64,000 nt of DNA from Piedraia hortae CBS 480.64. Its lineage: Eukaryota. A model generated the notes under the pieces. That model was not told the DNA's origin. It made no database searches and saw only the letters and a program-made list of their open reading frames with translations. A program made the translations under genes and the position numbers. This document shows positions 26,678 to 31,933 of this stretch, one piece after another (within the stretch, counting starts at the first letter, position 1; each line of letters starts with the position of its first letter). The DNA lies in assembly GCA_010093745.1 (NCBI GenBank), contig MU005997.1:62001-126000 (forward strand). Reading direction: 5' to 3'.

Positions 26678-27539
26678 GTTGGCTGGAGCTATCCGTATGA
26701 CAATCCACGTCTCTATACAAGGCCGTCTGCTGTCGTAAGAAATCACGTCGCAACTCGTCCGGCGATGCTGTTGACGAGGCGGGAGTTGGCCGGATCGGGC
26801 CGTGCATTCCTAGTTCAGACGAACGAATCACGACTCACCGATCGCTCAGGGTTCGGCCCGCACTTCTCGCACACCAACTTATTGAAGCCAATACGATAAT
26901 TTGTTGACACATTCAATTTGTGCAAGAAATCACAACACCCGCCTGATCCTCATAGTTCCTTCATCGACACAATCCCGAAGACGAAGGGATCGATCAATGC
27001 AATGATGCAAATTTATGGCACATTCTGCCATACTTTTCACAATAATCCCACCACATTTTTTTTTCTCATCGTTCCGACAGGACAGTGGCAATTAAGTGAT
27101 CATGACGGCGGTCATGAAGAATATACCCAAGGATGTCGTTTACGAATACTGCCGAACACCTTATAAAATTCAAGTTGCAGCTGTTGCATATAACATGTCA
27201 CCGGCATATGCAACATTTCCAGGCTTCCTCAATTCAAGATATGTATAGCCGCCATTCCACCTTTAACTTCAACTAATGCTGACTGATAATTATAGGGGCC
27301 AAGCTGGCTGTTCTTCTTGCGAACGGTGTGCGTGATTGACAGCATTCCTACCTGGTTGCGGTGCCAGTCATTCTGTCCTTCTTGCTTCAGCTTCTCATAC
27401 ATTTTCGAATTCACAGGGCTGAACTCCCTCGAGAAGCCACACCAGGGCCGGTAGAACAGTGATGCAATGACCAGTTGCTACCCGTCCCATCTGCCTGGGG
27501 CATAGACCGTGCTCTTCGAGTGAAGTTCAACGACATATG

Positions 27540-29153: not shown

Positions 29154-29828
29154 TCAAATCAAACCTCTCTGCCATCGCCCAAACAGATACCCCGTCCCAA
29201 ACCCAATCACAGACACAAGAACCACAACACCAAGACACGTAATCACCAACCTCGTGAACCCTCTCTTCCTCTTTACTTTCCCTTCCTTCTCCTTCTCCTT
29301 CTCCTTCCCCCTCTTCCTCTTCTTCTTCTCCTCCTCCCCAACCGACGGCTCCGACTCCGGCAACCGCTCCTTCAACGTGGGCACAAACCCCTCATCAAAC
29401 CCAAAACCCCTCTCTATCGCTTCATCATCCGATTCCCCTACCCCGGAGGGAGTCGTTTCCCTAAAAAGCCTCACGGATCCGTAGTTCGGCCCGCGTTTGG
29501 ACGCAGCTTCAGCGCATGAGAGGACTGTTGTGAGGCTGGTGAGGAGTGCTTCGTTTTGGTGTAGGACTTTTGCTAGTGGATGGGAGGAGGAGTGGGTTCT
29601 TCTGGGTGGGGTAGTTGGACCGCTGGTTTGGGATGGTGAGGGGTCGGTGAAGCGCCTGGCTTCGCGTAGGGAGGCTTTGCGATGGAGGTCGGGACGGGAG
29701 AAGGCGTTAGGGTGTGGTTTGAATGTCGTTGGGGTGGGGGAGGCTTCTTCTTGAACCGGCTCGTCGAGTTCGGTTGTTGGGGAAGGAGGTCGGGATGGTA
29801 ATTCTACCCACGACTCGGACATGGCCAT
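29154..29828 (-). CDS. Tail-anchored protein with an N-terminal LIR/AIM-like WVEL motif; uncharacterised
   Basis: MAMSESWVELPS; Ser/Pro-rich linker; NEALLTSLTTVLSCAEAA helix; Lys-rich stretch; C-terminal TM LVITCLGVVVLVSVIGFGTGYLFG followed by RWQR. Confidence 0.75.
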   Translation of the reverse strand: MAMSESWVELPSRPPSPTTELDEPVQEEASPTPTTFKPHPNAFSRPDLHRKASLREARRFTDPSPSQTSGPTTPPRRTHSSSHPLAKVLHQNEALLTSLTTVLSCAEAASKRGPNYGSVRLFRETTPSGVGESDDEAIERGFGFDEGFVPTLKERLPESEPSVGEEEKKKRKRGKEKEKEKEGKVKRKRGFTRLVITCLGVVVLVSVIGFGTGYLFGRWQRGLI

Positions 29829-30002
29829 GGTTACGGTTGGGACGAGATGGAGAGGACAACTACAAAAGTGTGGCCTGATGAAAGATGCAGTGTCATGCGC
29901 CACCAGGCAAGGCACCATCAACGCCCCGCGCGCGTGGGGCAAACATGTGACGAATTTGGGGGCTAAACAACCTGGTCACGGTCTACGTCATGCGACTACG
30001 GA

Positions 30003-31933
30003 TTAGAACGTTGTCTTCTGGCCGCTAAAGTCTCCAAATCCTCCGCGGTTGGTGGAAAAGTTACCACGGCCGCGCTGGTTTCCTTGTCCACGGCGATTAC
30101 CTTGAAATCCCGCACGGCCTCCTGCGCGGCCAAAGCCACCCTGACGTGCGCGGCCCCCTCCGCCCATGTTGTGCTGACCACCGCTCTGATCGCGGCTGCT
30201 GGCGTAGTCGAGACGGATAGGACGGTTGTCAATGTACGAGCCCTGGCATCCTTCAAACGCAGCCTTGGCCTCATCAATGGAGCCCATCTCGACGTAGGCA
30301 AAACCCTTGGGTCGGCCAGACTCGCGGTCAGTAGGCATGCGCACGGCGTTGATAGTTCCGTAGCTTGAAAAGTGCCCGGACAGCATGTCCTCGTTGGCGT
30401 TGAACGACAGATTGGCGACAAACAAAGTCGTAGACGGCGCAGACGGCACGTCCCCAAACTTGTTGGCGCGGTTGTTCGGGCGCTCCTGGCGTTCCGTGCC
30501 AAAGTCAACGCGAATGGCACGGCCATCAACGTCGGCGCCGTTCTTGGCTTCCAAGGCCTTGACGGCCGAGTCGACGTCCTTGAAGGTGACGTAGCCAAAG
30601 CCTTTGCTGCGGCCAGATGAAGGATCAGTGACGAGACGCACGTCAACCACTTCGCCAAACTCGCCAAACTCCTGACCCAGCAGGTCCGCATCGACGTTCC
30701 AGCTTAGGTTGCCCACAAACAGCTTGGCGGTCGGCTCCTTGAGCTCGCCCCCGACCATGACCTTGCTGCGCTTGGACGTGAACGTGTCCTCCGTCTCGGC
30801 CTTGCGCTTCTTGCCAGCCTCCTTGGCAGTCTCTTTGGAAGCTGGCTTTTCTTCCTCCTCGTCGGAAGATGAAGACTCGTCGGAGGAGTCCTCGGTGCCT
30901 TCAGACGCAGAAGAGTCGTCCTGTCACTGGTTAGCATGATTTTCTATAGCATAGTGAGACATCATACCTTGGCGGCCTTAGCCTTGGGCTTGGCCTCTTT
31001 CTCGTCGTCACTATCGCTCTCCGAACTAGACTCGTCGCTGGTCTCAGCAGCCTTGGCGACCTTTGTGGTAACCTTGGCCTTCTTGGTGACAGTCTTAGAT
31101 GGCTTGGTCTCCTCCTCGGACTCATCGCTACTGCTCTCAGCCGCGGCCGTTACGGCAGCCTTGGTAGGCTTCTCGTCCTCGCTATCAGACTCTTCAGAGG
31201 AATCTTCGGACGCAGACGTATTGTCAGAAGATTCATTTGTACCGTTGGCCTTGGGCTTGGTTTCGACCTTTGTTTCCACAACCTTGGTGGTGGTGGCCGG
31301 CGCATCAGAGTCGCTGGAGTCGGACTCGGAAGAGTCGCTAGAGTCGTTAGAATCGCTAGAATCGCTACTATCCTTGGGAGCAGCCTTTGCCACGACATTA
31401 ACGGCAGCCTTCTTGTCAGCAATCTTGCCATTAGCAGCCTTTCCATTATTAGCCTTCCCATTAACCTTGCCGTTGGCCGGCTTAGCAACTTCCTCCTCAG
31501 GCTCCGACTCCGACTCCGACTCCGACTCCGACTCAGAAGAAGTATCCTCCTTAGCCGCAGCCTTGGGCTGGGTTTTGACGACGGTCGTCTTCTTGACAAC
31601 CTTCTCAACCTCCGACTCTGACTCACTGCTCGAGTCCTCCGCATCATTCATAACGACATCCTCACTCTCCGACGACTCTTCATCGGGAGTAGGCTCCTTC
31701 TTGGCCTTCTTGCCACCCTTCTTCCCATCAGCTGCAGGCTTGGCTGCAGACTTAGCCTTAGCCTTCATCTCCTTAACCTTGGTCTTCTCAGCCGCAACGA
31801 CTTTCTTAGCCGTATCTTTGGCAGTAGCCTTAGCCACCTTCTTCGGCGTCTCAGCGGCCTTGGTCACACGACCCGTCTTGACCTTCTTCTCTGTAGCTTT
31901 CGCCACCTTATTCGCAGCCTGCATCTTTGCCAT
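30003..31933 (-). CDS. NSR1: Nucleolin-like nucleolar protein (Nsr1/Gar2)
   Basis: Alternating K/A-rich and S/E/D-rich N-terminus, two RRMs (LFVGNLSW..KGFGYV; LFVANLSF..KGFAYV), RGG/GAR tail; intron 30921-30967. Confidence 0.93.

What the first reader, a model, noticed from the sequence alone, without database searches (positions are those of the whole stretch)
29154..29828. Candidate fungal BNIP3/NIX-like mitophagy or pexophagy receptor
Seen: the protein starts MAMSES-WVEL-PS (WVEL at 29799-29810), a W-x-x-L Atg8-interacting motif preceded by Ser/Glu. It continues as a disordered S/P-rich region, one helix, a Lys-rich stretch, and a single C-terminal TM with tandem GxxxG (GFGTGYLFG) and a short basic tail. 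Knowledge: animal BNIP3/NIX carry an S-WVEL LIR near the N-terminus and a C-terminal GxxxG TM anchor; the yeast receptors Atg32 and Atg43 are lineage-restricted. Inference: a homologous or convergent tail-anchored selective-autophagy receptor of filamentous fungi, where I know of no established equivalent.
Basis: partly seen in the sequence, partly recalled or inferred. Interest (0 to 1): 0.72.

Follow-up and report, generated by a model that had tools for sequence, protein, structure and literature searches.

The report
Unnamed fungal autophagy-receptor-like membrane protein family
This gene is a shortened member of a large, unnamed family of mould proteins that keep a docking motif for the cell's recycling machinery on a membrane anchor, and the family's other signals point to the nuclear envelope or ER more than to mitochondria, so it is a candidate for the still unidentified receptor that marks nuclei or ER for digestion in filamentous fungi.

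Summary
The ORF and motifs are as described. The protein is a fast-evolved, shortened member of an unnamed ascomycete family (about 1,800 clusters; no Pfam, PDB or literature name found). BNIP3 homology is not supported, and this genome has a separate Atg43 gene. The organelle guess is doubtful: typical members have a ~47-residue tail after a long transmembrane segment, no positive charge next to it (230 of 233), a bipartite NLS-like pair before it (222 of 233, shuffled 50), and in one large group an N-glycosylation sequon in the tail (84 of 123, shuffled 20; but 3 of 104 in a second group). That suggests an ER/nuclear-envelope type II protein laid out like yeast Atg39. The BNIP3-like short basic tail is peculiar to this copy. 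Best reading: ER/nuclear-envelope autophagy receptor (about 0.42); mitophagy/pexophagy receptor 0.18; non-receptor 0.3. Binding, location and function are untested.

The parts
29154..29828 (-). Single-exon ORF, 224 aa (P0001; the database copy P0002 starts at Met3); only member of the family found in this genome
   Evidence: relative P0011 hits only this locus in G000 (E 1.1e-8); profile built without P0001 matches it (hhalign 98.6%, E 1.3e-15)
29799..29816 (-). ESWVEL: candidate Atg8-interacting motif; also fits the published FIR (Atg11/FIP200 claw) consensus; Ser at -1, +5 and +9 are candidate activating phosphosites (inference)
   Evidence: consensus from PMC7615515; weak fold support
29700..29723 (-). 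F-x-P-x-P-N-A-F linear motif, near-invariant in the family, partner unknown
   Evidence: 213 of 227; invariant F36 P38 P40 F43 in alignment A2
29496..29579 (-). Conserved isolated helix, residues 84-111 (L-x-x-S-L-[ST]-T-[LV]-L-S core), partner unknown
   Evidence: 194 of 227 by strict pattern
29262..29327 (-). Two basic clusters (residues 168-173 and 184-189): bipartite NLS-like element just before the TM
   Evidence: 222 of 233 against 50.4 +/- 5.8 in shuffles, P0001 positive
29178..29249 (-). Single transmembrane helix (194-217) ending in a G-xxx-G-xxx-G glycine zipper (29178-29204); probable self-association (inference)
29157..29177 (-). 7-residue tail; relatives have 28-75 residues here, with a conserved Cys (227 of 233) and in many an N-glycosylation sequon

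Best explanation
[quoted passage not shown] Shown: family membership, conservation of each motif, disorder, one TM. Inferred: the TM inserts into the ER; the basic pair and the lumenal tail bias it to the nuclear envelope; on starvation or stress kinases phosphorylate the serines around the W-x-x-I/L motif; the motif docks into Atg8 on the growing phagophore and perhaps first into the Atg11 claw; the glycine zipper clusters receptors; a piece of ER/envelope, or a whole nucleus, is engulfed. This copy keeps the minimal kit (motif, FxPxPNAF, helix, basic pair, TM) and has lost the D-E-I-V-T-T block, the acidic block and the lumenal tail.
For: Motif in 227 of 233 listed members, with I/V/L, V/I and E/D exchanged only inside the AIM consensus, and kept in this copy despite a terminal branch of about 2 changes per column. 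No fold apart from two helices. Atg8 and Atg11 genes are in the genome. Fold of residues 1-45 with a stand-in Atg8: weak support, ipSAE 0.34, best of 3 controls 0.00, contact agreement at least 71%, partner pLDDT at least 47; the mark was reached by 51 of 78 solved and 2 of 108 mismatched pairs, but at 0.60 or under by only 5 solved pairs and all 4 mismatches that passed (of 180); peptides are untested and Atg8-AIM complexes are solved, so it may be memory. For ER/envelope: sequon in 84 of 123 tails against 19.7 +/- 3.7 shuffled; 84 of 106 Asn at tail positions 10-18 are in sequons against 4 of 28 further down; on a tree S/T swaps outnumber sequon losses 9 to 6, background 94 to 207; first ten tail residues carry net charge of zero or less in 230 of 233 and the uncharged span is a median 32 residues, unlike mitochondrial tail anchors (established knowledge, recalled); bipartite basic pair 222 of 233. 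Layout matches Atg39 (PMC8789198).
Against: No binding, location or phenotype data. The listed members were ranked by profiles that contain the motif, and are the best 120 of 1,844 and of 1,796, so conservation is overstated to an unknown degree. The sequon is at chance level in the Dothideomycete-rich set (3 of 104, shuffled 2.3), absent in 149 of 233 overall, and 3 of 23 background S/T columns show as strong a swap ratio. The whole tail is net positive (median +4). This copy has no lumenal tail and a +2 short tail, which taken alone fits a mitochondrial or peroxisomal anchor. A working NLS could take the protein to the inner nuclear membrane, where the motif would face away from cytosolic Atg8. 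The D-E-I-V-T-T block fails the published FIR consensus at its last position. Whether Aspergillus, Neurospora, Fusarium or Magnaporthe have the gene was not shown: none is among the named rows.
Confidence: 0.42

Rival explanations
1. One reading: an outer-membrane mitophagy (or pexophagy) receptor working like BNIP3/NIX or Atg43, with the tail in the intermembrane space.
For: Same conserved AIM; SWVELP is shared letter for letter with the NIX LIR printed in PMC7615515 Table 1; GxxxG followed by R/K at the TM end; this copy's tail is short and +2; whole tails are net positive; Atg43's AIM is reported as restricted to Schizosaccharomyces (PMC7609059), leaving the role open in moulds.
Against: Sequon enrichment, neutral or negative TM-proximal tail, long uncharged span and the conserved bipartite basic pair have no reason to be kept on a mitochondrion. 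S-W/F-V-E-I/L is a common optimum of unrelated LIRs (OPTN, FUNDC1, TEX264 in the same table).
Confidence: 0.18
2. An ER/nuclear-envelope membrane protein that is not a cargo receptor: a tether or scaffold (KASH-like outer-membrane protein, or inner-membrane protein imported by its NLS), or a membrane-held regulator whose NLS-bearing arm is released by cleavage; the W motif would serve its own turnover or bind something other than Atg8.
For: Type II layout with a 40-50 residue tail and a Cys 23-31 residues from the end in 118 of 123; several other motifs (S-rich run, EEYEES, FxPxPNAF, helix) are as conserved as the W motif; NLS-like pair; SUN-domain genes are in the genome.
Against: No C-terminal poly-proline, which mammalian KASH domains need (PMC2733748; last-three-residue counts); Cys distance is spread rather than fixed; this copy has lost the tail yet kept the W motif; no DNA-binding or cytoskeleton-binding domain.
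Confidence: 0.3
3. A true distant homologue of animal BNIP3/NIX.
For: Same order of N-terminal LIR, middle helix and GxxxG anchor (the BNIP3 side of this comparison, apart from the LIR, is recalled).
Against: PF06553 is not among the 25 of 35 families shown for 64 members at E up to 10 nor for 9 others scanned singly; no PDB sequence hit; no animal protein among the 10 phmmer hits or named rows; HMM survey finds BNIP3 only in animals (PMC5526904).
Confidence: 0.03
4. This copy is a decaying remnant whose function differs from, or is lost relative to, the family.
For: Longest branch in the tree (2.05, median 0.067); 224 aa against about 400; three conserved blocks and the tail missing; a 400-aa relative failed to find it in G000.
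Against: Intact frame, covered by contigs of a run with spliced joints; five motifs kept in order; no other copy found with P0001 or P0011 as query.
Confidence: 0.07

Closest known systems
Atg39 (Saccharomyces cerevisiae nucleophagy/perinuclear ER-phagy receptor)
   Same: Single-pass, N-terminal cytosolic arm with AIM and Atg11-binding sequence, C-terminus in the lumen (PMC8789198 passages).
   Different: Atg39 is reported only in budding yeasts (PMC13201548), has a 234-residue lumenal part with membrane-binding helices; this family has a 40-50 residue tail (7 here), an NLS-like pair and a glycine zipper; no sequence link found.
BNIP3 / NIX (animal mitophagy receptors)
   Same: S-W-V-E-L LIR near the N-terminus with flanking serines; C-terminal TM with GxxxG.
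   Different: No profile match; family tail long and neutral next to the TM; the short basic tail is special to this copy; BNIP3 reported as animal-only.
Atg43 (Schizosaccharomyces pombe mitophagy receptor; PF08589)
   Same: N-terminal AIM, disordered arm, C-terminal TM, similar size.
   Different: The genome's PF08589 gene is elsewhere (G000:C17, E 4.6e-33); this protein has no PF08589 match.
CCPG1 (animal ER-phagy receptor)
   Same: LIR plus a FIR; the family's D-E-I-V-T-T block resembles its S-D-I-V-T-L FIR2. Type II ER topology of CCPG1 is recalled.
   Different: No homology shown; the block misses the consensus at +3 and is lost in this copy.
Npr1 and Epr1 (S. pombe), AeiA (Aspergillus oryzae), MoAti1/CaSun1, MoAtg24
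   Same: Atg8-binding factors for nucleophagy, pexophagy or mitophagy in ascomycetes.
   Different: Npr1 is multi-pass, Epr1 soluble, AeiA has no TM, MoAti1 is a SUN-family peripheral protein, Atg24 is a PX-BAR nexin.

Membership tests
Organelle-resident Atg8 receptors (functional class) | [WFY]-x-x-[ILV] core with acidic or phosphorylatable residues at -1/-2 | tested here: met
   ESWVEL is the only extended LIR match in P0001; 227 of 233 members
Organelle-resident Atg8 receptors (functional class) | Motif in a disordered arm, attached to a membrane anchor | tested here: met
Organelle-resident Atg8 receptors (functional class) | Motif-dependent binding to Atg8 | tested here: inconclusive
   weak support only, 0.34 against best control 0.00, no contacts given
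Organelle-resident Atg8 receptors (functional class) | Needed for selective turnover of an organelle | not testable with these tools
   requires deletion and flux assays
BNIP3/NIX (PF06553) | Match to the BNIP3 domain profile | tested here: not met
   the genome-wide search was blank but so were its controls, so it adds nothing
BNIP3/NIX (PF06553) | Profile-profile similarity | not tested
   no BNIP3 sequence was available from a tool
BNIP3/NIX (PF06553) | Short, positively charged tail after the TM | tested here: inconclusive
   met in this copy only; not met in the other 232
Atg43 (PF08589) | Conserved C-terminal PF08589 region | tested here: not met
   another gene carries it
Atg39 | Sequence homology | not tested
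   no Atg39 sequence or profile was compared directly; no yeast protein among named rows
Atg39 | Lumenal C-terminus with membrane-binding amphipathic helices | tested here: inconclusive
   sequons suggest a lumenal tail in one group; no tail helix predicted in the full-length model; tail absent in this copy
KASH proteins | C-terminal poly-proline motif | tested here: not met
   commonest endings VVA, IVA, VRV; requirement from PMC2733748
KASH proteins | Type II TM with about 30-35 conserved lumenal residues | tested here: inconclusive
   median 47 residues with conserved Cys; SUN binding not tested

The most novel reading that the evidence does not exclude
The family is the unidentified nucleophagy receptor of filamentous ascomycetes: a nuclear-envelope protein that joins an Atg8/Atg11-binding arm to an NLS-like element and a clustering TM, and marks whole nuclei, chromatin included, for engulfment, which yeast receptors do not do; this copy shows the minimal working set of parts.
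Probability: 0.22. Interest if true: 0.85.

Novelty: new member of a known kind. Interest (0 to 1): 0.64.

Why it matters
Filamentous ascomycetes digest whole nuclei by autophagy during starvation, hyphal fusion and infection-cell development; the A. oryzae authors infer that a receptor exists but do not name one (PMC11335778 Discussion), a 2026 review lists only 'ATG proteins' for it (PMC13377003), and receptors are said to be hard to find by homology (PMC12005406). A widespread, unnamed, single-pass protein with a near-invariant AIM gives one gene to tag, delete and mutate. If it proves mitochondrial instead, it would still be an integral-membrane mitophagy receptor of a kind not found in the papers searched for these fungi.

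Tried and rejected
Single-sequence word search found only the window's own protein. Pfam AflR hit (E 0.003, below cut-off, 1 of 64 members) rejected. ESM Atlas: three unnamed Ascomycota clusters at 0.89-0.90, structure hits all under TM 0.33; no usable named cluster for a full-length member. PDB by sequence and Foldseek on a low-confidence model: nothing. BNIP3 HMM on G000 blank with blank controls. P0148 did not find the gene in G000; P0011 did. No RNA holder listed on record. The longer frame from the ATG at 29918 (254 aa) is not favoured: it begins 85 bases after the neighbouring stop and the database copy starts at Met3. FFAT-like reading of EEYEES considered by eye and dropped. The 14 'hypothetical' MoAtg8 two-hybrid hits in PMC10938464 Table S1 could not be mapped to sequences. 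Six locus tags of family members gave 0 papers. One search dropped 6 of 110 new proteins through a filter; they were put back and all carry the motif. One search also held 112 redundant cluster members and fragments, so counts are taken. The tree did not place this copy (long branch). Synteny was not examined.

Full report
Observation. The frame window:29154-29828(-) gives a 224-residue protein exactly as described, directly downstream of an RRM-protein gene in a compact fungal genome (G000, 16.9 Mb). WVEL lies at 29799-29810. A model on a 64-row alignment shows two helices only, 84-111 and 191-217. Contigs of run X1, which show intron-like joints in neighbouring transcripts, list no joint or letter difference inside the gene (one study, RNA by guess, 8 of 85 pieces printed). 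The motif alone is weak evidence: shuffles give an extended LIR pattern in 22.5% of cases, 3.7% with W.

Family. phmmer against 1.84 billion representatives gave 9 relatives at E 1.6e-7 to 9e-4; those with an organism name are hypothetical proteins of filamentous ascomycetes. Profiles then found 1,844 and 1,796 clusters among 8,000 candidates each, of which the best 120 were listed; named rows are Leotiomycetes, Sordariomycetes, Dothideomycetes and small lichen-related classes (class names recalled from the genus names), all unnamed in function. A profile built without the window's protein matches it (98.6%, E 1.3e-15), and relative P0011 finds only this locus in G000. No Pfam family over its cut-off, PDB sequence or fold matches. 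Members are about 400 residues with blocks in fixed order: [DE]-S-W-[VI]-E-[IV], a serine run, D-E-I-V-T-T, an arginine run, EEYEES, D-x-V-M-T-S-S, FxPQPNAF, one helix, two basic clusters, the TM and a tail. The window's copy keeps the W motif, FxPxPNAF, helix, basic pair and TM and has lost the rest; it has the longest branch in the tree.

The Atg8 motif. Among 233 proteins (the window's plus 232 listed relatives) the strict motif is in 227 and a looser one in 231; the two without it look N-terminally incomplete. Exchanges stay inside the AIM consensus (last position I 162, V 65, L 4). Because the profiles contain the motif and only top rows are seen, this is an upper estimate. The motif also fits the FIR consensus and resembles the dual LIR/FIR of OPTN; serines flank it as in BNIP3 and NIX (PMC7615515). 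Atg8 and Atg11 are encoded in G000. Folding residues 1-45 with a stand-in Atg8 (L006, 90% identical to the genome's over 86 residues) gave weak support: 0.34 against 0.00 for the best of three controls, contacts agreeing at least 71%, partner pLDDT at least 47, no interface shown; passes this low came from 5 of 78 solved pairs and from all 4 mismatches that passed, peptides are uncalibrated, and similar complexes are solved. I give Atg8 binding about 0.75, mostly on conservation.

Not BNIP3, not Atg43. No member scored with the BNIP3 profile among the families shown, and a published HMM survey finds BNIP3 only in animals (PMC5526904). The genome has its own Atg43-family gene elsewhere. The likeness to NIX is six residues of an optimal LIR plus a generic GxxxG anchor: convergence. 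A profile-profile test against BNIP3 remains open.

Which membrane. The tail after the TM is a median 47 residues; this copy's 7 is the shortest, the next is 28. The first ten tail residues have net charge zero or less in 230 of 233, and the uncharged span is a median 32 residues, 24 here; mitochondrial tail anchors are usually shorter with basic flanks (recalled). In the first protein set 84 of 123 tails hold N-x-S/T against 19.7 +/- 3.7 in shuffles, nearly all 11-17 residues from the TM, about the least distance at which the ER glycosylates (recalled); 84 of 106 Asn at positions 10-18 are in sequons against 4 of 28 further on. On a tree, S/T swaps outnumber sequon losses 9 to 6, against 94 to 207 in 23 background columns, 3 of which show the same excess: moderate support. 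Against: the Dothideomycete-rich set has 3 of 104, chance level, and whole tails are net positive (median +4). A bipartite NLS-like pair precedes the TM in 222 of 233 against 50 in shuffles and is kept here. A tail Cys is in 227 of 233. Together these favour a type II protein of the ER or nuclear envelope, at about 70% if it is a receptor. This copy, taken alone, is ambiguous.

Mechanism proposed. Insertion in the ER/envelope, phosphorylation around the motif, docking on Atg8 and perhaps the Atg11 claw, clustering through the glycine zipper, engulfment of envelope, ER or a nucleus. All of these steps are inferred. The NLS-like pair is a tension in the model: at the inner membrane the motif would face the nucleoplasm; the pair may instead bind importin as a chaperone, acidic lipid or chromatin. 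FxPxPNAF and the helix are unexplained. The main rival is a non-receptor envelope protein; a KASH identity fails on the missing poly-proline end.

What is known. Atg39 has the closest layout but is reported only in budding yeasts; Npr1 is multi-pass and Epr1 soluble; AeiA has no TM; MoAti1 is SUN-family; Atg24 is a nexin. I found no paper on this family in ten searches of a library that lacks most subscription journals and does not search supplements; Atg8-interactor lists in supplements could hold a member, and the 14 hypothetical hits in one such list could not be mapped. Seen: whole text of PMC12005406; first of eight parts and Table S1 of PMC10938464; passages and Discussion of PMC11335778; passages and Introduction of PMC13201548; passages of PMC9980689, PMC7609059, PMC13757524, PMC13208281, PMC8789198, PMC10940145, PMC7615515, PMC13377003, PMC13696596, PMC2733748 and PMC5526904; listing only for PMC12136678. 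Earlier notes of this scan: none by sequence or place; one by words on an orphan protein in another genome, not compared with this family.

Verdict. Observation confirmed; receptor-like reading partly supported; BNIP3 kinship and the mitochondrial guess not supported by the family. A new, widespread, unnamed candidate of a known kind, best read as an ER/nuclear-envelope autophagy receptor (0.42), directly testable. Interest 0.64.

Noticed in passing
window:27000-29271: One contig of run X1 spans this stretch with a GT..AG joint on the + strand (27243-27295) and runs into the 3' end of the finding's gene from the other side; no ORF over 137 codons lies there. A spliced non-coding RNA, a long UTR or merged convergent transcripts.
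   Followed up: partly
window:29919-30002 and 30003-31933 (-): The gene starts only 174 bases after the stop of a nucleolin/Nsr1-like gene (acidic N-terminal part, two RRMs, RGG tail; name recalled, RRM); a contig runs across both without a joint.
   Followed up: no
window:22825-35788: Neighbours are ordinary housekeeping genes: DUF3292, a ChAPs protein, Alg6/Alg8 glycosyltransferase and a leucine-rich-repeat protein resembling RanGAP (last name recalled).
   Followed up: no
L084:1312-2460: The genome's Atg43-family gene lies head to head with an EF-hand ORF resembling calcineurin B (name recalled).
   Followed up: no
P0003-P0124 N-termini: Relatives differ freely just upstream of the W motif except for a recurring R-x-R-N-[DE] form, which suggests an intron there that gene callers often miss; the window's gene has no acceptor at that place and starts at an ATG instead.
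   Followed up: partly
P0058, P0062, P0095: Three members have S-W-V-G-[IV] in place of the acidic third residue; a natural variant for testing Atg8 affinity.
   Followed up: no
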